64,000 nucleotides of DNA from a virus (taxonomy: Duplodnaviria; Heunggongvirae; Uroviricota; Caudoviricetes): the IMG/VR virus record IMGVR_UViG_2706794662_000007. One strand, written 5' to 3'. Below the pieces are notes generated by a model, which saw only the letters and a list, made by a program, of their open reading frames with translations, did not search any database and was not told where the DNA came from. Every line of letters starts with the position of its first letter. The stretch's first letter is position 1. The position numbers and the translations under genes were made by a program. Below are positions 8,764-55,321 of this stretch, one piece after another.

Positions 8764-8967
8764 ATGGTCAGCTATGACAAGATCCGCGCGGAATATCGCG
8801 CAAAGTATCGCGCTTATAAACTAGAATTAATCAATGATTTAATCGCGCAACGCGACCAATTAAATTTTACGTTTTCTGATTTGCTTAACAGCAAACGAGA
8901 TTGCAAGCGTAAACGTGAATACTTACGTTTAAGCGCATTAATCGGAAAACTTCATAATTCTATTTAA
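8764..8967 (+). CDS. hypothetical small basic protein
   Basis: 67 aa ORF with AGGAG ribosome-binding site. Confidence 0.4.
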   Translation: MVSYDKIRAEYRAKYRAYKLELINDLIAQRDQLNFTFSDLLNSKRDCKRKREYLRLSALIGKLHNSI

Positions 8968-8987
8968 TTTTTTTAAGGAGCTTAATC

Positions 8988-9215
8988 ATGGTTATTTTCA
9001 TCTCTGGCGTAAATATCAATAATCATACTCTTGTTTATGATATTGCTGGTTTAGCTGGATATGCTCTAAGTTCTGAAGTGGTTGATGAAACAACGTTTAA
9101 AATAAACATCAATGACGTAGAACATAGAGCGCGCGCAGGAATCAATGAAGCAGATGTTACTTTAATGCTTCAAGAATTTTTAAACGCTGGTTTTAATATT
9201 CGCTTAGAAAAATAA
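8988..9215 (+). CDS. hypothetical small protein
   Basis: 75 aa ORF with AAGGAG ribosome-binding site; followed by strong terminator. Confidence 0.4.
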   Translation: MVIFISGVNINNHTLVYDIAGLAGYALSSEVVDETTFKININDVEHRARAGINEADVTLMLQEFLNAGFNIRLEK

Positions 9216-9222
9216 AAACAAT

Positions 9223-9247
9223 AGCGCCCATAGTGGGCGCTTTTTTC
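9223..9247 (+). terminator. rho-independent terminator
   Basis: agcgcccatagtgggcgct stem followed by tttttt. Confidence 0.6.
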
Positions 9248-9579
9248 GTTTCCAATACTCCCACCATAACGCGCCAATGATGGCGCGTTTTTTATTGTCT
9301 TTGACTCACTCCAACAACATAAAAATAAGCGCCAAAATAACGCCATAGACGCGCTTTTATATCCTTGCCAGTACATACCCATTACTTAACACATTAACGC
9401 GCTTAAAACGCGTTATATTGCGCTATAGCGCATAGTTAATCATTGGCTTTTAGTCTTGCTATGTGATCCGCGTTTATTTGTCGGCGCGGATCGGCATTTT
9501 GTTTTGTTCCGTATCCGCTCGCGTATTATGTGCGCGTGATTTTTCACATAATCACACCACTTAATCACGTATGCGATTA

Positions 9580-9843
9580 NNNNNNNNNNNNNNNNNNNNN
9601 NNNNNNNNNNNNNNNNNNNNNNNNNNNNNNNNNNNNNNNNNNNNNNNNNNNNNNNNNNNNNNNNNNNNNNNNNNNNNNNNNNNNNNNNNNNNNNNNNNNN
9701 NNNNNNNNNNNNNNNNNNNNNNNNNNNNNNNNNNNNNNNNNNNNNNNNNNNNNNNNNNNNNNNNNNNNNNNNNNNNNNNNNNNNNNNNNNNNNNNNNNNN
9801 NNNNNNNNNNNNNNNNNNNNNNNNNNNNNNNNNNNNNNNNNNN
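9580..9843. other. N-run (masked or unresolved sequence)
   Basis: 264 consecutive n. Confidence 1.
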
Positions 9844-15095: not shown

Positions 15096-17034
15096 TTACT
15101 TAACCTGGTGGCCAGGTTTAGCACCAGCATCCGGGCTTAACAGGAAGATATCTTTCCCGCCAGGACCGGCAGCCATCACCATGCCTTCAGAGATACCGAA
15201 GCGCATTTTACGTGGTGCCAGGTTAGCCACCATAATGGTGTGACGACCAATCAGTGCCTGTGGATCTGGATAAGCGGAACGGATGCCTGAGAAGACATTA
15301 CGCTTTTCACCACCGAGATCCAGCGTCAGGCGAAGCAGTTTGTCAGAACCTTCGACAAACTCCGCGTTTTCAATCAGCGCCACACGCAGGTCAACTTTGG
15401 CGAAGTCGTCAAAGGTGATGGTTTCCTGAATCGGTTCGTCAGCCAGTGGGCCAGTTACCGGTGCAGCTGTGGCTTTCACTTCTTCTTTGGATGCTTCCAC
15501 CAGTGCTTCCACCTGTTTCATATCGATACGGTTATACAGTGCCTTGAACGGATTCACTTTATGGCCCAGAAGCGGTTGCTGGATACCATCCCAGGTCAGT
15601 TCTGTATTCAGGAATGCTTCTGCACGTTCAGTCAGTTTCGGCAGTACCGGTTTCAGGTACGTCATCAGCACGCGGAACAGGTTAATGCCCATAGAGCAAA
15701 TCGCCTGCAGATCTGCATCGCGACCTTCCTGCTTCGCCACCACCCACGGAGCCTGTTCATCGACATAGCGATTAGCCAGGTCAGCCAATGCCATGATTTC
15801 ACGGATAGCTTTACCAAATTCGCGGCTTTCCCATGCTTCGCCAATCACTTCAGCGGCATCAGTAAAGGTTTTGTACAGTTGCGGGTCAGCCAGTTCGCTT
15901 GTCAGCACGCCGTCAAAACGCTTGTTGATAAAGCCTGCATTACGGGAGGCCAGGTTAACCACTTTGTTCACGATATCGGCATTCACGCGCTGAACGAAAT
16001 CTTCCAGGTTGAGATCGATATCATCAATGCGCGAAGAGAGTTTCGCAGTGTAGTAGTAACGCAGGCTGTCAGCGTCAAAATGATTCAGCCAGGTGCTGGC
16101 TTTAATAAAGGTGCCGCGAGACTTGGACATCTTCGCGCCGTTCACCGTCACATAGCCGTGAACAAACAGGTTGGTCGGCTTGCGGAAGTTGCTGCCTTCC
16201 AGCATGGCAGGCCAGAACAGACTGTGGAAGTAAACGATATCTTTGCCGATGAAGTGGTACAGCTCGGCGGTGGAGTCTTTCTTCCAGTATTCGTCGAAGC
16301 TTACGCTGTCGCCGCGCTTGTCGCACAGATTCTTGAAAGAACCCATGTAGCCAATCGGCGCGTCCAGCCAGACGTAGAAATATTTGCCCGGCGCGTTCGN
16401 NNNNNNNNNNNNNNNNNNNNNNNNNNNNNNNNNNNNNNNNNNNNNNNNNNNNNNNNNNNNNNNNNNNNNNNNNNNNNNNNNNNNNNNNNNNNNNNNNNNN
16501 NNNNNNNNNNNNNNNNNNNNNNNNNNNNNNNNNNNNNNNNNNNNNNNNNNNNNNNNNNNNNNNNNNNNNNNNNNNNNNNNNNNNNNNNNNNNNNNNNNNN
16601 NNNNNNNNNNNNNNNNNNNNNNNNNNNNNNNNNNNNNNNNNNNNNNNNNNNNNNNNNNNNNNNNNNNNNNNNNNNNNNNNNNNNNNNNNNNNNNNNNNNN
16701 NNNNNNNNNNNNNNNNNNNNNNNNNNNNCTCTTCGCTGTGCGTCGAGTGATAGTTGTCATAGCTGATGTTAAAGCCTGCGAAATCAGTCTGATGTTCCTG
16801 ACTCATTTCGCCAATCATCTGTTCCGGTGTGATACCAAGCTGCTGTGCTTTCAGCATGATTGGCGTACCGTGGGCATCGTCGGCACAGATGAAATTAACC
16901 TCGTGGCCGCGCATTCGCTGGTAACGAACCCAGACATCAGCCTGGATGTGCTCCAGCATATGGCCGAGGTGGATTGAGCCGTTAGCGTACGGCAGCGCGC
17001 ACGTCACCAGAATTTTCTTCGCGACTTGGGTCAT
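15096..17034 (-). CDS. metG: methionyl-tRNA synthetase (interrupted by N-run 16400-16728)
   Basis: Start [29 protein letters not shown] (HIGH-type motif) and C-terminus ...[24 protein letters not shown] match E. coli MetG as I recall it; the two flanking ORF fragments are in different frames because of the N-run. Confidence 0.95.
16400..16728. other. N-run inside metG
   Basis: 329 n. Confidence 1.
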
Positions 17035-18904: not shown

Positions 18905-19423
18905 CTAAAAATCAAANNNNNNNNNNNNNNNNNNNNNNNNNNNNNNNNNNNNNNNNNNNNNNNNNNNNNNNNNNNNNNNNNNNNNNNNNNNNNNNNNNNN
19001 NNNNNNNNNNNNNNNNNNNNNNNNNNNNNNNNNNNNNNNNNNNNNNNNNNNNNNNNNNNNNNNNNNNNNNNNNNNNNNNNNNNNNNNNNNNNNNNNNNNN
19101 NNNNNNNNNNNNNNNNNNNNNNNNNNNNNNNNNNNNNNNNNNNNNNNNNNNNNNNNNNNNNNNNNNNNNTTTAAAGGAAGATAGGTTCCCCATAGTAGCT
19201 GTCTGCCGTGCGCTCGTGTGAAATACCGGGCCATCTTCGGATTGCTATGCTGCTTAGGAGCGCCTGGTCTGTATGTCTGATACCCGGCCAACATCCCATC
19301 AAACCTGTATAGAGGGAATGTAACAACTCCTTCGCTTTCATCGATCCACTGTCTATATGGATGCACATCATAGCGGTAGTTACGAGTTAGCAAATGAGCT
19401 TCCAGCTTTCCAAATTTAGTCAT
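18905..19423 (-). CDS. hypothetical protein (interrupted by N-run)
   Basis: Start set to MTKFGKLEAH with GAGGGA ribosome-binding site; C-terminal part and frame uncertain. Confidence 0.35.
   Translation of the reverse strand: MTKFGKLEAHLLTRNYRYDVHPYRQWIDESEGVVTFPLYRFDGMLAGYQTYRPGAPKQHSNPKMARYFTRAHGRQLLWGTYLPLXXXXXXXXXXXXXXXXXXXXXXXXXXXXXXXXXXXXXXXXXXXXXXXXXXXXXXXXXXXXXXXXXXXXXXXXXXXXXXXXXXXXXFDF
18917..19169. other. N-run
   Basis: 253 n. Confidence 1.
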
Positions 19424-21475: not shown

Positions 21476-21748
21476 TTAACCCGCAGTGCNNNNNNNNNNN
21501 NNNNNNNNNNNNNNNNNNNNNNNNNNNNNNNNNNNNNNNNNNNNNNNNNNNNNNNNNNNNNNNNNNNNNNNNNNNNNNNNNNNNNNNNNNNNNNNNNNNN
21601 NNNNNNNNNNNNNNNNNNNNNNNNNNNNNNNNNNNNNNNNNNNNNNNNNNNNNNNNNNNNNNNNNNNNNNNNNNNNNNNNNNNNNNNNNNNNNNNNNNNN
21701 NNNNNNNNNNNNNNNNNNNNNNNNNNNNNNNNNNNNNNNAGTTGCCAT
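21476..21748 (-). CDS. hypothetical protein (mostly masked by N-run)
   Basis: ATG at 21748 preceded by conserved junction GGAGAGTGATATG; body is n. Confidence 0.3.
   Translation of the reverse strand: MATXXXXXXXXXXXXXXXXXXXXXXXXXXXXXXXXXXXXXXXXXXXXXXXXXXXXXXXXXXXXXXXXXXXXXXXXXXXXXXXXXXXXTAG
21490..21739. other. N-run
   Basis: 250 n. Confidence 1.
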
Positions 21749-25187: not shown

Positions 25188-26892
25188 TCATTTAACGCGT
25201 TTGAAAACGTATACGCTGACTGTGATCCCTGTGTCTTCAAACTCGTTGGTAAACGACTTCCCTCTGGCATAAACGTAATTATCCATCGTCATCCAGTCCA
25301 GTATTGGCGCNNNNNNNNNNNNNNNNNNNNNNNNNNNNNNNNNNNNNNNNNNNNNNNNNNNNNNNNNNNNNNNNNNNNNNNNNNNNNNNNNNNNNNNNNN
25401 NNNNNNNNNNNNNNNNNNNNNNNNNNNNNNNNNNNNNNNNNNNNNNNNNNNNNNNNNNNNNNNNNNNNNNNNNNNNNNNNNNNNNNNNNNNNNNNNNNNN
25501 NNNNNNNNNNNNNNNNNNNNNNNNNNNNNNNNNNNNNNNNNNNNNNNNNNNNNNNNNNNNNNNNNCCAGATCGGCGTTAATATAGGCCAGAAGATCCCCA
25601 CGTCCGGCTTGAGGCTCCAACAGCTTCTCACCAGGCTTCAATTCAGTGGCTCTGGCAACGTACTCAGCAATCAAGCGTGGGGTAGGGTAGAACTGGTGTG
25701 ATTTTGTATCCGGTATTAAACCGGTAGCCACAATCGTATTTAGCGTATGGCCGATCTCATACGGGAACTGCCAGTGCTTTTTCTCCTGCACGCCGCCAAT
25801 GAAGCTCAGTGTGCGCTCAAGCTCTTCCACCTGCGACTTCTGGAGAGCTGAATCAGAGAAGTACCATACGCCTTTGTCTTTGCTCAATCGCCCGTCACGA
25901 AGCGCAGTGCGAACCGGCACGGAGATCGTCTTCTGGATTAACCCGAACTGCTTTGGTGCCCGTGTTTTTGGCGCAGTTCGGCATGGCGCGGGGATTGCAG
26001 CAGGCATACTGTAAGCCAGCACCTCATTCAACTTCCAGGCCACGTCAGGATGTATTTCAAAGTGAACGTTGCCGTTCTTGAACATCTTCACGCGCATCAG
26101 ATTTCCATCGACGTTCATCCAGTCACCGGTCTGGCAGTCGTTTGCCCGATACGCAGCTGATAGCACCTCAGCAGTGCGGTTGATGGTAATAAATTCTTTG
26201 TGCGCGAAGAAATGAAGCAAGACACGCAGATCGTCGATGTAGTCCTCTTTGCGATAGTTCACGCTAACGCTGTCACGCCAGAAATCAGAAATGCAGTCAG
26301 CGATTATCAGACGCTCGCTGAAACCGTTTGTCTTATTTGTCTTGTGCGCAGGACTCAGCGCCTTAAACAAGCCATACACGCGCTCAGAGAGATATTTGTG
26401 CCTGTCATTCAGCAAATTAAGCATCGTTGGTATGACCGTTTCTGCTTTGAACTCCGGTACACCAACGAACTCTTTAACCTTCATCTGATAGCCGGTTCTG
26501 TCAGTTTTGATGACTTCCTGCTTGCCCTCGATAAATAGCTCACGCCACTCGTCGCGACGGGAAGCTGGCATGATCAGCAGAACGTTAGTCATATCCGTAA
26601 CCTTCCTCCAGTACTCGGCCCAAATATTCTGTTTCACCCATTCCAGATCGACGTTATCCAGCCAGACTCGATTCAAACGTGAGCGATCTTCATCTGGTCG
26701 GTGGTTTAGTCGAAGCAGGCGATTAATCATGTTGTGGCGTTCATCGCCATAAACGAAGTCGTGTACCTGATACATGAAGGAGATCTCTTTCTCGCACTCG
26801 GCCACAATTTCGTGGATGACGTTCATTTCCTGTCGATAGTCGATAGCAGTGTTTGAGCTGGCATCGCCCATGATGGAAAGGGCTGTATTCAT
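25188..26892 (-). CDS. putative N6-adenine DNA methyltransferase with large N-terminal extension (C-terminal part masked)
   Basis: FYPTPRLIAEYV followed by EPQAGRGDLLAYI (motif X then motif I, gamma-class order) just before the N-run; the catalytic (D/N)PPY region would lie in the masked part. Confidence 0.45.
25311..25565. other. N-run
   Basis: 255 n. Confidence 1.
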
Positions 26893-26995
26893 AATTGCAC
26901 CATTAAGAAATGATTTGTTTAATGATGCAATTATTTCAAAAATAAAAAGGTGCTAAATAGAAATTAACAGGCAATACTTAAAATAAAGGCATTGA

Positions 26996-27670
26996 CTAAT
27001 CATACTTGGATGTATTTATAACCAGGACTTTATTTGTATATAGTTTTTTTACATTCCATGTAACATTACTTGAATACCATTCACCATTATATATTTGGTT
27101 TCCCGTTGCGCCTGTCATTGTTACGTATACAGGTCTGTCGTAAGGTGTTCGTCTATAGTTATATACTCCAACCATTGCAGGCATTATCGCACACGGGTAT
27201 CCCATATTTATGGTAAATTGAGGATTTGTAATAGTGATAATCTCTGCATCAAGGGGCATCATCTCACCGTGATATACCATTTTACCTGCGCTATTATACA
27301 TGGCAATACCATATCCTGAATGTGGTAACACCATATCAGAAAAAGCATAAACTGTTATCGTTCCGGGGTTTCCTCCAACCTGATTCAGTCTGAGAACATT
27401 ATACCCATCTCTAAATTCATGAACGAACATCATATTCGCCTTATTACTGCTTTTTATAAAGAAAAAACATGATTTGTTCGACGGTATTGAAGTCTTAAAA
27501 ACAGAACCTTTAGACGTGGACATTGTCCCCCTATTAATCAAATTTTGCGGTGTAAATTCTGGACTCATCCACACATTACCATTTGACTGAGTAATTGACA
27601 TCCCGAACATTATTGTTATCCCCAATATGTATATATATAAGATCCAAGTCCCTTGTATAAATTTGACCAA
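26996..27670 (-). CDS. membrane-anchored or exported protein (hypothetical)
   Basis: N-terminal hydrophobic segment WILYIYILGITIMFGM; AT-rich region. Confidence 0.45.
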   Translation of the reverse strand: MVKFIQGTWILYIYILGITIMFGMSITQSNGNVWMSPEFTPQNLINRGTMSTSKGSVFKTSIPSNKSCFFFIKSSNKANMMFVHEFRDGYNVLRLNQVGGNPGTITVYAFSDMVLPHSGYGIAMYNSAGKMVYHGEMMPLDAEIITITNPQFTINMGYPCAIMPAMVGVYNYRRTPYDRPVYVTMTGATGNQIYNGEWYSSNVTWNVKKLYTNKVLVINTSKYD

Positions 27671-27897
27671 CTTACTGTATTGCCGTTAATAGTGATAGTT
27701 GGTGTAGGTATATTTACATGGTTATCGTTATTTAAAGGCATCAATGAGCACACAGCATGTAATGATTTGCCAGGTGGTGGATTTGGGTAAGTCTTAGAGC
27801 CTGACGTGGTTGTAAATCGATCAAGAAAAAAAATAGGAGTAAGGAAGCCGGTAACGTTAACTCCCTTATTATTGTAGATCCCTGTACCGTATGCCAT
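27616..27897 (-). CDS. hypothetical ORF overlapping the 5' end of the previous gene in another frame
   Basis: 93 aa ORF; may be the N-terminal part of a frameshifted gene. Confidence 0.3.
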   Translation of the reverse strand: MAYGTGIYNNKGVNVTGFLTPIFFLDRFTTTSGSKTYPNPPPGKSLHAVCSLMPLNNDNHVNIPTPTITINGNTVSWSNLYKGLGSYIYTYWG

Positions 27898-27951
27898 TTT
27901 TCATCCTTGTTTTTATCAACATAATATGGCCGATCATGCGGCCATATCAGA

Positions 27952-28521
27952 TCAATTAGAGCTTTGAAAGGCTTTGTGTGGCTGTGTTGCGAGGTTATGT
28001 CGATGGCTTAACTCACGCATCATGTCTTCAAGGCGACTCTTTGTGTCGTCGAGTTGGTCAGCCATTGCTCCTAAAAGCTGACGAACTACCATCGGATCGT
28101 CGCTGTTTAGTGATGGCATTTTATAACCCGCCTGAGAAGACATCAGATTGAATGCTGACATCAACATCGTTAGAGAGGATTTAAGCCCGGCAATTTCACG
28201 ATCTTTGCTGGCAATAATCGTCTCACTTTTGTTACTGTCATGAGTTCCTTGAGTCTCGATCACCATATCCAAAGTCTCTTGCAACTTATCAGCTCTCTGT
28301 TTTTCAGCAAGATAATGAACACCGAAATGATGTGCTAAAGCTACAACCTGAGTTGGCTCTTCAAAGGTGGACTCAAAATTAAGTGCTGTAACCACTCTCT
28401 CAAAAATGGAAACGTCTTCTATTCCTCGAAGAATGGCTAACATTTTGACAAGTTCATTAGCATCCATTTCTTCGAATAGGGCGTTTTGTTCATCAGCTAT
28501 TGCTTTGCATTTCTCGCACAT
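27952..28521 (-). CDS. hypothetical protein
   Basis: 189 aa ORF; motif A at 28538-28555 upstream. Confidence 0.5.
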   Translation of the reverse strand: MCEKCKAIADEQNALFEEMDANELVKMLAILRGIEDVSIFERVVTALNFESTFEEPTQVVALAHHFGVHYLAEKQRADKLQETLDMVIETQGTHDSNKSETIIASKDREIAGLKSSLTMLMSAFNLMSSQAGYKMPSLNSDDPMVVRQLLGAMADQLDDTKSRLEDMMRELSHRHNLATQPHKAFQSSN

Positions 28522-28660
28522 ATGTTTTCCTTAATGCTTAAACAAGTTGTTTTCTTATTGGCTTTATTGTGATGTGGCATAAAAGGGGAGCAAGCTAAAC
28601 GTAAAGGTGCAAACTCTCTATTTCGGTCAACGAAACACAATGGCCATTTGACCCTTGTCA

Positions 28661-28819
28661 TTAACACGTTGCTTTACGGACTAGCGGATAAGCGAAGTAG
28701 ATCGCCAGACCAATGAGGACGCCATCAGAAATGACAGACATCATCTTTCCCGTAAAATCCACCAACACCGCCATCACCAGAAGAGCAATGACGGTCACAA
28801 GCCGGAATCTCTCAAGCAT
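28661..28819 (-). CDS. small hydrophobic peptide (52 aa), coupled to TerB-like gene
   Basis: Manual translation MLERFRLVTVIALLVMAVLVDFTGKMMSVISDGVLIGLAIYFAYPLVRKATC; ATG overlaps upstream stop as TAATG; below ORF-track size cutoff. Confidence 0.35.
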   Translation of the reverse strand: MLERFRLVTVIALLVMAVLVDFTGKMMSVISDGVLIGLAIYFAYPLVRKATC

Positions 28820-29244
28820 TAGAGATAAGCATCCAGTGACAACTGAAGCGCCTGGGCGATCTTTTTCAGCGCCTGCTCTTCTGGTTCATCAATGCCGTCT
28901 TGGTCGGCAATATCAAGGCACAGACAAAGTACATCTACTGCATCATCAGTCCCGGCCACATCCGCCAGCTCACGTAAAGCCTGGGCATTAGCACGGCGCG
29001 GTGAGGCTTCGTATTGAGCGCGGATATTGGCGCTCATCTGGGCTATCTCACCAGCAAAAGGAGAAAATGCAGGCAGAGCTGCAATTGTTTTCTCAAGAAT
29101 GGAAATTTCTTTTGCATCGCATGTACCGTTGGCATAGGAGATCATGTACCCACCCCACACGGTGGCTTCAACCGCATCACGGTTCTCCATTTTTTTGACT
29201 TCGATAACTGCTTTACGAGTTTTCTTTTTGAAGAAACCTAACAT
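28819..29244 (-). CDS. TerB-like domain protein (hypothetical)
   Basis: 141 aa, all-helical profile reminiscent of TerB; motif A at 29268-29284 upstream. Confidence 0.4.
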   Translation of the reverse strand: MLGFFKKKTRKAVIEVKKMENRDAVEATVWGGYMISYANGTCDAKEISILEKTIAALPAFSPFAGEIAQMSANIRAQYEASPRRANAQALRELADVAGTDDAVDVLCLCLDIADQDGIDEPEEQALKKIAQALQLSLDAYL

Positions 29245-43272: not shown

Positions 43273-45195
43273 AGCTGCGCCCCTCTTTAACTTCCAGCGT
43301 AATAGTTTCCCGGAACCATGACTTCATCTCTTTATGGGAGATAATCAGCACAGTACCTCGCTCGCGAGCTTTGGACTCCAGAATACCCATGAGGCGTTCA
43401 AGACCGGCTGTATCGAGTGCATCGTCAATTTCGTCGCCGATAAACAAATCGATGTTTTTACTCGCCCGGTTACTAACCAGATCCTGCAATGCCAAAGAAC
43501 ACGCAATGCGAACCTTCCGCTTCTCACCACCAGAGAGGGTCTGGAACGACTTACTTGAACCTTTCTTCTGCACACTAATGTTGAATTTGTCGCGATACTC
43601 ACCTTTTTTGGTGACATCCATCGTCGACCACTCAGCAGTAATATTCCCGTCAGACAACGTATTGAGATACTCGGCAGTGCGTGTATTCAGGAAAGGCGTA
43701 ACAGACGTCAAAATATGAGAACGCACCCCGGCAGGAGAGTAGACCTGACGAGCTTTTTCCAATAGCAACGTTTGTTCCTGAATAGCCTTCAACTCATCTT
43801 TTAAGGACTTGAAGGTAGACTTACTGGATACCAGGTTATCTTCGTGTCTGGCGATAAGAGCAATAAACGGATTAATCTCTTTTGATATACGATCGACCTC
43901 AGTACGAGCACGAGTCACAAGAGACTCAATAGCAACAATCTCCTTCTCACGATGACGCAAAGATGAGAGTTGTTTCGTAAGCTCTTCAATCCGGGCAATG
44001 ATAGCCGTTACATCAGGTGTCGTTTTAACAAGGGCAGACTCAATGCTTAACGCTTTCTCAAGATTCGTTTTGTGTTTAGCCATTGCCTCTGCAAGTGTCT
44101 TCGCCTGACCAATTTCCTGACGTGCTTGTTCAATGAAATTCTCCTTCACCGTTGATAGATCTTCTTCGCAGTAGGCTTTGCCACAAGTAGGGCATGGTGA
44201 TCCCACTTTAGTACCAACCTCTTCTGCTTTGGTCTTAAAATTACGCGCGCGGTTCATTGCATCAGCCTGACTATTTTCTGTAGCTTTGATGCTTGCCCGA
44301 ATATCAGTTATCGCACCACGAACNNNNNNNNNNNNNNNNNNNNNNNNNNNNNNNNNNNNNNNNNNNNNNNNNNNNNNNNNNNNNNNNNNNNNNNNNNNNN
44401 NNNNNNNNNNNNNNNNNNNNNNNNNNNNNNNNNNNNNNNNNNNNNNNNNNNNNNNNNNNNNNNNNNNNNNNNNNNNNNNNNNNNNNNNNNNNNNNNNNNN
44501 NNNNNNNNNNNNNNNNNNNNNNNNNNNNNNNNNNNNNNNNNNNNNNNNNNNNNNNNNNNNNNNNNNNNNNNNNNNNNNNNNNNNNNGATTGTCGACTCCA
44601 ATTTGGTTTTAACCACATCCATACGTGCGGCAGCTGCATTAGCTCGCTCACGAGCAATAGCGTAGGCGCGTGTCAGTCTGTCAACGCCAGCGGCTTCTTC
44701 TACGATGGTTTTGAGGTTTTTGTCGGACATTCCAGGTAAATCTGGCATAGCTTCTTGGCTCGCATAGATGGAAGCCATGAAAACCTCTTTAGATGCACCG
44801 ATCAGACGCTCGACGAACTCTTGCGTCAGCGCATCTTTGCCTTTCGTCATATCGCCGTCTTCACCACGAACGATAAGCCGATTTTTGAACTCTTTGTGTT
44901 TACGGTGACGAATGATCGCATATCTCTTGCCTTCATCCTCGATGGTTACTGCAACACGACAGTTCTTTTCATGGTCGGTAGACAACACATCGTCACCCTT
45001 CACACCATGAGCTGTTTCGCCATAAAGACACCACATCAGGCTATTCATTAGCGTTGACTTTCCAGAGCCATTACTTGATGCGGAACTATCATCACTATTA
45101 ACACCCTGAATGAGCACTAAACCACGCTGATCTAACTCGACCTCCGCGCTGGCGATAGCCATAAAATTCTCAACCTGGAGCTTTAAAAACTTCAT
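43262..45195 (-). CDS. SbcC/Rad50-like ATPase (gp46-like), interrupted by N-run 44324-44586
   Basis: N-terminal Walker A GSNGSGKST; C-terminal signature LSGGEKRK and Walker B LFIGDEID; coiled-coil middle. Confidence 0.8.
44324..44586. other. N-run
   Basis: 263 n. Confidence 1.
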
Positions 45196-54230: not shown

Positions 54231-55321
54231 TTACTCTTCTACTGACTCGGTGGGGTTGTCTTTTGCTCTTCGGTCGTCGATTGCCTGCAAAGCCGCAATG
54301 ATTTCAGCCAGTGGCTTCTCCCGATACATCTCGACGATCTGCGATTTGGTGTATTTCTTGTCACCAATTTCAACTCGCCCGCTGGCGTTCTTTGGCAGGT
54401 ATCCTTCTTCCAGCATGTACTCGACGAGCGATTCGATAACGTCGAGGCCACGAGTAGGATCGAAGTAGAATTTCCAGGTGCATTTGCCATACGGTGGTGC
54501 AACTTTGTTTTTGATGCATTCTGCGCCTACGTCCTGGCCGATCTTCTCTTTACCATCCTTCATCACCGATGCACCAAGACGGATACGTACAGAAGCGTAG
54601 AACTTCGGTGAATCTCCACCTGGAGACGTAGTAGGGTCGCCAAACATTACACCGATTTTTGTGCGAACCTGATTCAAGAAGATGATGCAGGCGTTGTATT
54701 TGCGTGCCCACAAAGCCAGAGTAGGGAAGTTCGCACTTGTCGCACGAGCCAGTGCCGTATTGTCGTTCATGTTTAGCTGATCTTTGTCTTTGGCAGTGCC
54801 TTCAGCCATCTTTTCGAACTTCTCGGCTTTGGAGTTCGGAACCATAGACGCAAGTGAGTCAGCCACGATACAGATAGGTGCTGATTCAGGAATAAGCTCT
54901 TCATCACGTACCAATTTAAGAATTGTGCCGATCAACTCTACAGAGTCTTCGAAGGTATCAGGCTGCTTGTATACCCACTGACCGTCATCCTCATCTGCAT
55001 TCAAACCATTGGCTACAGCCAGGCCAACGTCAAAACTGTTCTCATGATCGAGGANNNNNNNNNNNNNNNNNNNNNNNNNNNNNNNNNNNNNNNNNNNNNN
55101 NNNNNNNNNNNNNNNNNNNNNNNNNNNNNNNNNNNNNNNNNNNNNNNNNNNNNNNNNNNNNNNNNNNNNNNNNNNNNNNNNNNNNNNNNNNNNNNNNNNN
55201 NNNNNNNNNNNNNNNNNNNNNNNNNNNNNNNNNNNNNNNNNNNNNNNNNNNNNNNNNNNNNNNNNNNNNNNNNNNNNNNNNNNNNNNNNNNNNNNNNNNN
55301 NNNNNNNNNNNNTTTTGCCAT
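54231..55321 (-). CDS. RecA-family recombinase (UvsX/RecA-like), interrupted by N-run 55055-55312
   Basis: C-terminal part ...IIFLNQVRTKIGVMFGDPTTSPGGDSPKFYASVRIRLG matches the RecA core (loop L2 region); N-terminal ATG at 55321; Walker motifs presumably masked. Confidence 0.8.
55055..55312. other. N-run
   Basis: 258 n. Confidence 1.

What the first reader, a model, noticed from the sequence alone, without database searches (positions are those of the whole stretch)
26900..27950. AT-rich locus with two overlapping ORFs for a membrane-anchored protein
ORFs 26996-27670 and 27616-27897 overlap by 55 nt in different frames within a low-GC segment. This is either a programmed or mutational frameshift in a single exported protein of about 300 aa, or two genes. 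Low GC and envelope localisation are typical of receptor-blocking or exclusion proteins.
Basis: seen in the sequence. Interest (0 to 1): 0.4.

Follow-up and report, generated by a model that had tools for sequence, protein, structure and literature searches.

The report
Displaced two-gene phage receptor-binding cassette
The "overlapping ORFs" are two ordinary adjacent genes of a phage-plasmid that most likely build the receptor-binding tip of its tail; they are not a frameshifted membrane protein, and the only unusual thing is that the cassette sits about 60 kb from the tail genes.

Summary
The window is an SSU5-like phage-plasmid of E. coli/Shigella, identical to p09EL50 over the region compared. 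On the minus strand lie a 93-aa gene (27897-27616) and a 204-aa gene (27610-26996), separated by 5 nt. The 55-nt overlap and the "membrane anchor" appear only if the second ORF is extended to an unconserved upstream TTG.

- **Family:** both genes match separate phage families end to end (phrog_557, phrog_425). They are two genes in every close relative examined and evolve under purifying selection (dN/dS 0.08 and 0.11).
- **Context elsewhere:** the same pair sits next to the central tail-fibre gene in Warwickvirus phages (Drexlerviridae), Nonagvirus and Stx phages. Recent papers propose it as the tail-tip receptor binder.
- **Fused forms:** remote 307-326-aa single-chain homologues span both genes, so this is an old, stable split.
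- **This element:** the pair is a 1-kb low-GC insertion between backbone genes. Relatives with an empty site carry their own pair plus Cor in the tail module.

This is an ordinary member of a known family, and its function is inferred. Deleting either homologue in Stx phage Sp5 did not abolish infectivity.

The parts
27616..27897 (-). Gene for the 93-aa small partner protein (phrog_557, widely mis-annotated as 'outer membrane protein'). ATG at 27897-27895, TAA stop at 27618-27616.
   Evidence: ORF list. phrog_557 E 1.4e-29 over residues 1-93. Homologues 93-95 aa. dN/dS 0.08 against Cyrano. AF2 model pLDDT 85, small beta-sandwich. hhalign to the N-terminal 80 residues of single-chain homologues, E 2.9e-7.
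26996..27610 (-). Gene for the 204-aa 'hand-like' all-beta protein (phrog_425, mis-annotated as 'membrane associated protein'). This is the putative receptor-binding subunit. ATG at 27610-27608.
27611..27624 (-). Gene junction. The last two sense codons TGG GGA (27624-27619) form a GGGGA Shine-Dalgarno-like motif. Then come the TAA stop, the 5-nt spacer CAATA (27615-27611) and the ATG of the 204-aa gene. This is the layout expected for translational coupling.
   Evidence: Read directly from the sequence. The same ...YIYT(Y/F)WG-stop, 2- or 5-nt spacer and M(Y/F)G(M/L)SI start occur in Cyrano, Ss-VASD, tonijn, JenP1 and Bas04. In SSU5 the stop and the ATG overlap.
27904..27908 (-). AAGGA ribosome-binding site, 6 nt upstream of the ATG of the 93-aa gene.
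   Evidence: Read from the sequence.
27915..27956 (-). Stable hairpin at the upstream edge of the cassette, overlapping the stop codon of the backbone 189-aa gene. No U-tract follows, so it is not a canonical intrinsic terminator.
   Evidence: RNA fold -18.8 kcal/mol, z -3.5 against shuffles. It replaces the GC-rich terminator-like hairpin found in the empty site of SSU5 and pJN2-26.
26925..27951 (-). The whole cassette of about 1.03 kb and low GC. It is inserted between the backbone 189-aa gene (27952-28521) and the DUF4942 methyltransferase-like gene (25279-26892).
   Evidence: Homology to SSU5 and pJN2-26 stops right after the 189-aa gene and resumes about 35 nt before the DUF4942 ATG. The site is empty in SSU5, Klebsiella pJN2-26, E. 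coli C1 p1 and pECAZ162_2. GC 0.36 against 0.45-0.50. Synonymous divergence is 4-11 times that of the flanking genes.

Best explanation
These are two separate, probably translationally coupled genes of a temperate SSU5-like siphovirus that is maintained as a plasmid. Neither protein has a signal peptide or a membrane span. The 204-aa 'hand-like' beta protein, together with the 93-aa beta-sandwich partner, most likely caps the distal tip of the trimeric J central tail fibre. There it would bind an outer-membrane protein of E. coli/Shigella as the terminal receptor. The likely stoichiometry is 1:1, because remote homologues carry both parts in one chain. The receptor itself cannot be assigned. 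The closest allele (80%) is in Nonagvirus JenP1, whose receptor I could not find. The Stx-phage allele (60%) belongs to phages that use BamA. The Warwickvirus allele (40%) belongs to the BtuB-dependent phage Bas04. In this lineage the module is a horizontally acquired 1-kb cassette lodged among non-structural genes about 60 kb from the tail operon. It takes the place of the pair-plus-Cor module that SSU5 itself keeps beside its tail-fibre genes. Shown: gene structure, family membership, fold, selection, insertion boundaries and the distribution across relatives. Inferred: virion incorporation, docking on J, receptor binding and coupling.
For: - **Two genes.** Annotations agree on two genes. 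Each matches a separate PHROG end to end. Homologue lengths are single-gene. The junction is conserved in seven phages. dN/dS is 0.08 and 0.11.
- **Genomic context elsewhere.** The pair lies directly beside the J-like tip gene in tonijn, Bas04 and JenP1, and after the needle gene in Stx phage Ss-VASD. BASEL and a 2026 preprint show that this locus tracks receptor specificity (PMC8594841; 10.64898/2026.04.02.716166). Bas04 uses BtuB.
- **Literature on the family.** Matusiak 2025 (PMC12309495) models the hand-like protein on the spike tip. The phi24B cryo-EM preprint detects the 204-aa homologue gp54 in the virion proteome and sees extra density at the needle tip.
- **Single-chain homologues.** P0087 carries phrog_557 at residues 1-80 and phrog_425 at 99-307. 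hhalign gives E 2.9e-7 and 1e-25. Vid5 gp23 sits right after its J-like gene.
- **One pair per element.** Four cassette-bearing plasmids have no pair and no Cor in the tail module. SSU5 and pECAZ162_2 have pair plus Cor there and an empty ectopic site.
- **J tip.** J of this plasmid ends like T1-type J proteins. The match to T1-type J runs to its last residue, whereas the match to HK97 J stops about 30 residues short, which I read as HK97 J carrying its own distal domain there.
- **Not lysogen-expressed.** The homologues are not in the list of Cyrano genes expressed in the lysogen.
Against: - No experiment on this element or on any phrog_425 protein shows receptor binding.
- In Stx2 phage Sp5, single in-frame deletions of the homologues ORF72 (92 aa) and ORF73 (205 aa) were built. 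They are not among the nine genes needed for plaques or lysogeny on K-12 (PMC5155283). At least in that podovirus the pair is dispensable in the laboratory.
- The genes lie among non-structural genes on the opposite strand, far from the tail operon, and I found no convincing promoter.
- The last 75 residues of J are 93-96% identical between SSU5 and these plasmids, although their pairs are only 28% identical. JenP1's J tip is only 40% identical, although its pair is 80% identical. Docking specificity is therefore unexplained.
- The link to the LptD-binding RBP rests on structure plus one weak profile hit. Direct profile searches against PDB sequences and hhalign against the Oekolampad RBP found nothing.
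- The one-pair-per-element pattern rests on six elements.
Confidence: 0.65

Rival explanations
1. The pair is a real virion or assembly component but not the essential terminal receptor binder. It could be an accessory adhesin that widens host range, or a chaperone-like factor for the tail tip.
For: Sp5 mutants lacking ORF72 or ORF73 were made and are not listed as defective. Matusiak 2025 also mentions a structural or chaperone-like role. phi24B gp54 is of low abundance in virions and gp55 was not detected. The J tip does not co-vary with the pair allele.
Against: The fold matches a proven RBP. In Drexlerviridae the locus tracks receptor use, by the authors' account without exception (PMC8594841). 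Every SSU5-like element examined keeps exactly one pair, unless its tail module is destroyed. Purifying selection is strong.
Confidence: 0.2
2. It is a receptor-blocking or superinfection-exclusion envelope protein made by the resident plasmid-prophage.
For: The segment is a low-GC, moron-like insertion outside the structural operon. Historical annotations call the proteins 'outer membrane' and 'membrane associated'.
Against: There is no signal peptide, lipobox or membrane span once the true start is used. The genuine exclusion proteins of these modules are separate small lipoproteins: Cor, SSU5_025, bas04_0025 and the Rtp45 type (PMC12685063). The homologues are not among lysogen-expressed Cyrano genes. 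Published membrane-affinity estimates for family members are low (PMC12309495). The pair is also carried by strictly virulent phages: the Warwickvirus phages tonijn and Bas04, and JenP1.
Confidence: 0.05
3. It is one protein of about 300 aa made by a programmed -1 frameshift, or a recently frameshifted pseudogene of such a protein.
For: Remote single-chain homologues exist. In all seven relatives examined the second gene is in the -1 frame relative to the first, with spacers of -1, 2 or 5 nt.
Against: There is no slippery heptamer and no conserved sequence in the overlap. The second frame is closed by stops 10-18 codons upstream in relatives. The ATG and the M(Y/F)G(M/L)SI N-terminus are conserved immediately after the stop, with an SD-like GGGGA. 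The split persists across proteins only 28-60% identical, in four phage groups and in 150 E. coli genomes. Both genes are under purifying selection in their own frames.
Confidence: 0.02
4. It is a functionless passenger fragment picked up from another phage.
For: The location is ectopic, the GC is foreign, and no promoter stands out.
Against: dN/dS is about 0.1, with dS of 0.65-0.85 between two plasmid lineages. Both reading frames are intact in 150 complete genomes. The canonical pair is absent from the tail module of the four cassette carriers examined.
Confidence: 0.03

Closest known systems
phi24B gp55/gp54, equivalent to Sp5 ORF72/ORF73 and Ss-VASD gp65/gp66 (short-tailed Stx phages, Sepvirinae)
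   Same: The same two families in the same order with the same junction. Identity is 65% for the small protein and 60% for the large one. gp54 is in the virion proteome and is proposed to cap the central needle as a gp54-gp55 heterodimer.
   Different: There the genes follow the needle gene directly and precede lom. Here they are about 60 kb from the tail genes in a siphovirus. The Sp5 deletions were not essential. The presumed receptor there is BamA.
Pair beside gpJ in Nonagvirus JenP1
   Same: This is the closest phage allele: 80% for the 204-aa protein and 68% for the 93-aa protein. It is also a siphovirus with a J-like tip protein that ends without a lambda-type distal domain.
   Different: JenP1 is virulent and its pair sits in the canonical locus. 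The last 75 residues of its J are only 40% identical to those of the plasmid's J. I did not find its receptor in the literature.
BtuB-type 'bona fide RBP locus' of Drexlerviridae (Bas04 FritzSarasin bas04_0025/0024/0023; tonijn)
   Same: phrog_557 plus phrog_425 in the same order, 49% and 40% identical. The locus correlates with the terminal receptor (PMC8594841).
   Different: That locus adds a Cor-like lipoprotein gene and lies convergent to gpJ. Specificity for BtuB cannot be carried over at 40% identity.
SSU5_023/024/025 (the prototype phage-plasmid's own module)
   Same: Same backbone phage and same two families (phrog_557 E 7.6e-22, phrog_425 E 7.5e-44). The J tip is nearly identical.
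   Different: Only 28% identical to the window pair. It lies in the tail module after the tail-fibre adhesin and is followed by a Cor exclusion lipoprotein. The ectopic site of SSU5 is empty.
LptD-binding single-chain RBPs (Oekolampad bas18_0025 / Rtp44; phrog_1265; PDB 9RPT)
   Different: One chain of 321 aa as annotated in the genome, with no detectable similarity by hhalign. It has a different receptor and an adjacent Rtp45-type exclusion protein.
Single-chain phrog_557+phrog_425 proteins (Pantoea phage Vid5 gp23; metagenomic P0087 and others, 307-326 aa)
   Same: Collinear with both window genes. Vid5 gp23 starts at the stop of the J-like gene.
   Different: Fused, about 25-30% identical, and no experimental data.
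T5 pb5 / Llp (functional analogue)
   Same: A monomeric RBP attached non-covalently to a trimeric central fibre, encoded with an exclusion lipoprotein. The comparison is drawn in PMC12685063 and PMC8594841.
   Different: Unrelated fold and size. No homology was tested or claimed here.

Membership tests
phrog_425 'hand-like' tail-tip protein (mis-annotated 'membrane associated protein') | End-to-end profile match and a length of about 200-225 aa | tested here: met
   E 4.2e-69, residues 1-204 against profile positions 3-224 of 224. Homologues are 203-216 aa.
phrog_425 'hand-like' tail-tip protein (mis-annotated 'membrane associated protein') | All-beta fold shared with a solved small-siphovirus RBP | tested here: met
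phrog_425 'hand-like' tail-tip protein (mis-annotated 'membrane associated protein') | Encoded immediately downstream of, or beside, the central tail-fibre (J or needle) gene | tested here: not met
   In this plasmid J lies about 60 kb away and outside the window. The pair sits between a 189-aa backbone gene and a DUF4942 gene. This is a feature of gene organisation, not of the protein.
phrog_425 'hand-like' tail-tip protein (mis-annotated 'membrane associated protein') | Preceded by a phrog_557 small partner gene with a tight junction | tested here: met
   5-nt spacer. The same arrangement occurs in seven phages.
phrog_425 'hand-like' tail-tip protein (mis-annotated 'membrane associated protein') | Present in virions and binding an outer-membrane receptor | not testable with these tools
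   The only support is proteomic detection of the phi24B homologue gp54 and correlation with receptor use in Drexlerviridae.
phrog_557 small Ig-like partner (mis-annotated 'outer membrane protein') | End-to-end profile match, about 85-95 aa, beta-sandwich | tested here: met
Single-chain LptD-type RBP (phrog_1265, Rtp44/RBPOeko) | Significant sequence-profile membership | tested here: inconclusive
   Partial hit at E 1.3e-4, residues 41-151 against profile positions 159-282. hhalign of the single-chain homologue profile A4 against RBPOeko was negative, and PDB sequence searches with the A2, A3 and A4 profiles found nothing relevant.
Single-chain LptD-type RBP (phrog_1265, Rtp44/RBPOeko) | One polypeptide of about 310-320 aa with an adjacent Rtp45-type exclusion lipoprotein | tested here: not met
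   Two polypeptides of 93 and 204 aa. No Cor- or Rtp45-like ORF was found in the window or in the fetched parts of p09EL50 and Cyrano.
Programmed -1 ribosomal frameshift gene pair | Slippery X XXY YYZ heptamer in a conserved, open overlap | tested here: not met
   No heptamer is present. The overlap frame is not conserved and is closed by stops in relatives.
Programmed -1 ribosomal frameshift gene pair | The downstream frame lacks its own start signals | tested here: not met
   A conserved ATG, a conserved N-terminus and an SD-like GGGGA lie 8-11 nt upstream.
Superinfection-exclusion or receptor-blocking envelope proteins (Cor, Llp, Rtp45 type) | Signal peptide with lipobox, or a membrane span | tested here: not met
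   Maximum hydropathy is 1.12 and 0.79, with no basic-then-hydrophobic N-terminus. The Cor control begins MKKMILILGMALTLTAC.
Superinfection-exclusion or receptor-blocking envelope proteins (Cor, Llp, Rtp45 type) | Profile match to known exclusion or defence families | tested here: not met
   No PADLOC, Pfam or NCBIfam hit. phrog_1119 (Cor) matches the neighbouring genes in SSU5 and Bas04, not these proteins.
Superinfection-exclusion or receptor-blocking envelope proteins (Cor, Llp, Rtp45 type) | Expressed from the resident prophage | not testable with these tools
   Literature only: CYRAN_88 and CYRAN_89 are absent from the list of lysogen-expressed Cyrano genes (PMC9928086).

The most novel reading that the evidence does not exclude
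E. coli/Shigella SSU5-like phage-plasmids may carry their terminal receptor-binding module as a free-standing, exchangeable two-gene cassette outside the tail operon, swapped with virulent Nonagvirus and Stx phages. If so, host range could be re-set without touching the structural genes. The small-plus-hand-like pair would also be a split version of one ancestral single-chain RBP fold. That fold would then underlie the LptD binders and the FhuA-, BtuB- and BamA-associated modules, which a 2026 preprint treats as unrelated families. Three copies of an aromatic-Gly-hydrophobic hairpin motif might match the monomeric binder to the three-fold J tip.
Probability: 0.35. Interest if true: 0.5.

Novelty: new member of a known kind. 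Interest (0 to 1): 0.3.

Why it matters
For the scan, this removes a false lead: there is no frameshift, no membrane anchor and no exclusion protein.

For phage biology the instance has modest value.

- **Annotation:** about 150 complete E. coli genomes and hundreds of phage records label these proteins 'outer membrane', 'membrane associated', 'hypothetical' or even 'C39 peptidase'. They most likely decide which surface protein the phage docks to.
- **Organisation:** the ectopic cassette, set against relatives that keep a divergent pair plus Cor in the tail module, is a natural experiment in swapping receptor-binding modules on an otherwise near-identical backbone.
- **Testability:** PhiR41_1, which carries this allele (99.9% nucleotide identity over the region), lists K-12 MG1655 as its host. 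The proposed RBP role is untested for the whole family and is contradicted for Sp5, so this phage offers a direct test.
- **Architecture:** the split-versus-fused forms favour a 1:1 heterodimer over the homotrimer model for the small protein. They also link RBP classes that are currently treated as unrelated.

Tried and rejected
1. **Internal repeat.** I asked whether the 93-aa protein is a third copy of a domain repeated twice in the 204-aa protein. BLASTP gave E 0.24 and hhalign matched only 16 columns at probability 3%. Only a short motif is shared, so I did not pursue it.
2. **J tip as an indicator of RBP type.** The last 200 aa of the plasmid's J hit 1,727 phage records, including T1 and HK97. 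Tip identity does not follow the pair allele. The test does not discriminate.
3. **Sequence-level link to solved structures.** Profiles A2, A3 and A4 found nothing relevant in PDB sequences. A4 against the Oekolampad RBP by hhalign was negative.
4. **Promoter and terminator scan of 26500-28800.** Counts did not exceed those from shuffles.
5. **Pfam, NCBIfam and PADLOC.** No hits for either protein.
6. **Cobalamin lead.** The plasmid's CobT/CobS-like genes, annotated in Cyrano, looked suggestive beside a BtuB-type relative. I dropped this as a coincidence of annotation with no supporting evidence.
7. **Plasmid C1 p1 for the exclusivity test.** Its tail module has been replaced by an IS26-flanked phs operon, so it is uninformative for that test.
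8. **Receptor literature.** I found no paper on the receptor of PhiR41_1 or of SSU5-like E. coli phages.

Full report
**What the window is.** The 1,051 bases of the finding are 100% identical to about 108-kb non-mobilisable plasmids of E. coli O104:H4 (p09EL50) and Shigella sonnei, and to phage CMS-2020a. They are 99.9% identical to phage PhiR41_1 and about 86% identical to a second, commoner lineage that includes phage Cyrano. These are SSU5-like phage-plasmids. Their records annotate the region as two hypothetical genes of 93 and 204 aa (201 aa in Cyrano, whose start I judge to be called three codons late).

**Checking the observation.** Both ORFs are on the minus strand. The upstream one (ATG 27897, TAA 27618-27616) encodes 93 aa.

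- The ORF finder extends the downstream ORF to a TTG at 27670, which creates the 55-nt overlap.
- The ATG at 27610 lies 5 nt after the upstream stop. It opens with MFGMSI, the N-terminus shared by all homologues.
- In Cyrano, Ss-VASD, tonijn, JenP1, Bas04 and SSU5 the first gene runs into a stop, then a spacer of -1, 2 or 5 nt, then ATG. In all but SSU5 it ends ...YIYT(Y/F)WG.
- Upstream of that ATG the second frame is not conserved and is closed by stops 10-18 codons back.
- The hydrophobic stretch that suggests a membrane anchor (WILYIYILGITIMFGMSIT, hydropathy 1.83) is the out-of-frame reading of the first gene's 3' end. The real proteins peak at 1.12 and 0.79 and have no signal peptide.
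- The low GC is real: 0.36 against 0.45-0.50 in the flanks.

**Two genes, both functional.** Close database homologues are 203-216 aa and 93-95 aa, apart from fragments and one outlier of 118 aa, and none is fused. Each protein matches its own PHROG end to end: phrog_425 at E 4e-69 and phrog_557 at E 1e-29. Between the window and Cyrano, dN/dS is 0.08 for the small gene and 0.11 for the large one. Synonymous divergence is 0.85 and 0.65, against 0.07-0.16 in the two flanking backbone genes. The genes are therefore constrained as proteins, and this locus is far more diverged than its surroundings, which suggests allele exchange. No slippery heptamer exists. The TGGGGA of the last two sense codons sits 8-11 nt before the second ATG, the layout expected for coupled translation. 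That last point is inference.

**What the proteins are.** Pfam, NCBIfam and PADLOC find nothing.

- The 204-aa protein gives a confident all-beta AlphaFold model (pLDDT 91, pTM 0.86).
- That RBP is phrog_1265, which the 204-aa protein also touches weakly and collinearly (E 1.3e-4).

**Where the pair occurs.** By tblastn the 204-aa gene is in 478 phage records and the 93-aa gene in 278, in the same order wherever I inspected the locus.

- In short-tailed Stx phages it follows the central needle gene and precedes lom.
- In the Warwickvirus phages tonijn and Bas04 FritzSarasin it lies convergent to the J-like tip gene. In Bas04 a Cor-like lipoprotein gene accompanies it.
- In Nonagvirus JenP1 it lies between gpJ and the lateral fibre gene.
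[quoted passage not shown] Bas04 depends on BtuB.
- Matusiak et al. 2025 (PMC12309495) describe exactly these proteins as a small Ig-like protein plus a 'hand-like' protein. They appear in Dhillonvirus JLBYU60 (FhuA), phi24B (BamA) and a Pseudomonas podovirus, mis-annotated as membrane proteins and modelled onto the spike tip.
- A 2026 cryo-EM preprint on phi24B detects the 204-aa homologue gp54 in the virion proteome. It also sees extra density at the needle tip that fits a gp54-gp55 heterodimer.

The family and its proposed role are therefore already published, although no member has been shown to bind a receptor.

**A caveat from genetics.** In Stx2 phage Sp5 the homologues are ORF72 (92 aa) and ORF73 (205 aa). 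Single in-frame deletions were constructed. Neither is among the nine genes required for plaques and lysogeny on K-12, nor among the mutants with altered efficiency (PMC5155283). In that podovirus the pair is dispensable in the laboratory. This keeps an 'accessory' reading alive.

**Single-chain relatives.** An exhaustive profile search found 117 homologues. Most are 200-230 aa. Ten are 309-325 aa, with the match starting at residue 94-115.

- Their alignment matches the 93-aa family at columns 2-80 (probability 93%, E 2.9e-7) and the 204-aa family at columns 100-310 (probability 99.7%, E 1e-25).
- One of them, P0087, independently hits phrog_557 at residues 1-80 and phrog_425 at 99-307.
- In Pantoea phage Vid5 such a protein (gp23, 326 aa) starts at the stop codon of the J-like gene.

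The pair is thus a split form of a one-chain architecture, or that architecture is a fusion of the pair. The split is shared by proteins as little as 28% identical, so it is old and stable. It argues for 1:1 stoichiometry of the two parts. I did not find this point in the papers I read. The 2026 receptor-prediction preprint calls the FhuA, BtuB, LptD and YncD RBP families unrelated. The fold match to the LptD binder suggests otherwise.

**What is unusual here.** In this plasmid lineage the tail operon (J, a P1-S-like fibre, an adhesin, then lysis genes) lies about 60 kb away and outside the window. The pair sits between a conserved 189-aa gene and a DUF4942 methyltransferase-like gene.

- SSU5, Klebsiella pJN2-26, E. 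coli C1 p1 and pECAZ162_2 have an empty site there. It is a 140-nt spacer that, in the two elements I aligned (SSU5 and pJN2-26), carries a GC-rich hairpin.
- The insertion spans about 26925-27951. It begins with a different stable hairpin (-18.8 kcal/mol).
- SSU5 and pECAZ162_2 carry their own, very divergent pair (28% identity) plus a Cor lipoprotein right after the tail-fibre genes.
- Four cassette-bearing plasmids (p09EL50, Cyrano, pNT1F34-108k and S. sonnei FDAARGOS_524) have no pair and no Cor there by six-frame search.

Each intact element examined therefore has exactly one pair, four against two. That fits functional equivalence but is a small sample. J of this plasmid ends like T1-type J proteins: the match to T1-type J runs to its last residue, whereas the match to HK97 J stops about 30 residues short. 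That fits a need for a separately encoded binder, but the tip domain is too widespread to discriminate.

The cassette is in 150 of 5,426 complete E. coli genomes, almost always on plasmids. The backbone DUF4942 gene is in 187. In the LF82 study the Cyrano homologues are not among the genes expressed in the lysogen.

**Receptor.** The receptor cannot be assigned. The nearest alleles are JenP1 (80%; I found no receptor data), Stx phages (60%; BamA according to work cited) and Bas04 (40%; BtuB).

**Verdict.** This is not a frameshift, not a membrane-anchored protein and not an exclusion protein. It is an ordinary member of a recently described, still unproven family of tail-tip receptor-binding modules. 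The one notable feature is that it is encoded as a displaced low-GC cassette.

Noticed in passing
window 9580-9843, 16400-16728, 18917-19169, 21490-21739, 25311-25565, 44324-44586, 55055-55312: There are seven runs of N, 250-329 nt each and 1,872 nt in all. They depress the apparent GC in the composition profile, and the run at 25311-25565 interrupts the DUF4942 gene next to the finding. Several 'low-GC' bins of the profile are therefore masking artefacts.
   Followed up: yes
window 27915-27956 (-): A stable hairpin (-18.8 kcal/mol, z -3.5) lies at the upstream cassette boundary and overlaps the stop of the 189-aa gene. It has no U-tract. It replaces the terminator-like GC hairpin of the empty site in SSU5 and pJN2-26. 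Its role is unknown: RNA processing or stability, or a recombination scar.
   Followed up: partly
window 27608-27897 and 27300-27320; L015:20657-21619: A short motif recurs three times. It reads aromatic/Met-Gly-x-x-hydrophobic, then a Gly 4-6 residues later, then a hydrophobic residue. It opens the 93-aa protein (MAYGTGIYNNKGVNV), opens the 204-aa protein (MFGMSITQSNGNVWM) and recurs at residue 99 of the latter (GYGIAMYNSAGKMVY). It also opens the Oekolampad RBP (MGAGILIDYNDGRP). Statistics are weak. Three copies facing a three-fold J tip is a speculation.
   Followed up: partly
window 27611-27615 and the equivalent junctions in L002, L004, L005, L006, L009, L014: In all seven elements the second gene is in the -1 frame relative to the first, with spacers of -1, 2 or 5 nt, all equal to 2 modulo 3. 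No frameshift signal accompanies this. With only three distinct spacer lengths it may be chance or shared ancestry.
   Followed up: partly
L014:12611-13219 (SSU5_024); L002:6097-6711 (CYRAN_89): The annotated starts look too late. In SSU5 an ATG overlapping the stop of SSU5_023 gives 202 aa beginning MYGS, like the rest of the family, instead of 188 aa. In Cyrano the start three codons upstream gives 204 aa (MFGMSI).
   Followed up: yes
L011:9497-12868 and 8899-9411 (p09EL50, outside the window): The C-terminal 117 residues of the plasmid's lateral tail fibre are 92% identical to those of tail fibre gp61 of Stx phage Ss-VASD. The following 170-aa adhesin is 68% identical to that phage's gp38-like gp62. 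Both host-recognition modules of this plasmid thus have close relatives in Stx phages.
   Followed up: partly
RefSeq E. coli plasmids listed (for example NZ_CP104844.1 76801-77849): Recent RefSeq annotation labels one gene of the 86% allele as 'cysteine peptidase family C39 domain-containing protein'. Neither Pfam nor NCBIfam supports this for the window protein. It looks like an annotation error that is spreading.
   Followed up: partly
L017 (E. coli C1 plasmid p1, 12000-34000): This is a degenerate SSU5-like plasmid. Most of the tail module has been replaced by an IS26-flanked thiosulfate reductase (phsABC) operon plus other insertion elements, so it is a phage-plasmid turned into a plain plasmid.
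   Followed up: no
window 28661-29244 (-): Just upstream of the backbone 189-aa gene lie a TerB/TciA-like gene ('tellurite/colicin resistance') and a DUF3927 (TciB-like) gene. Both are conserved in the E. coli and Klebsiella relatives, but a Rha/Ant-like gene stands in their place in SSU5 and in E. coli C1 p1.
   Followed up: no
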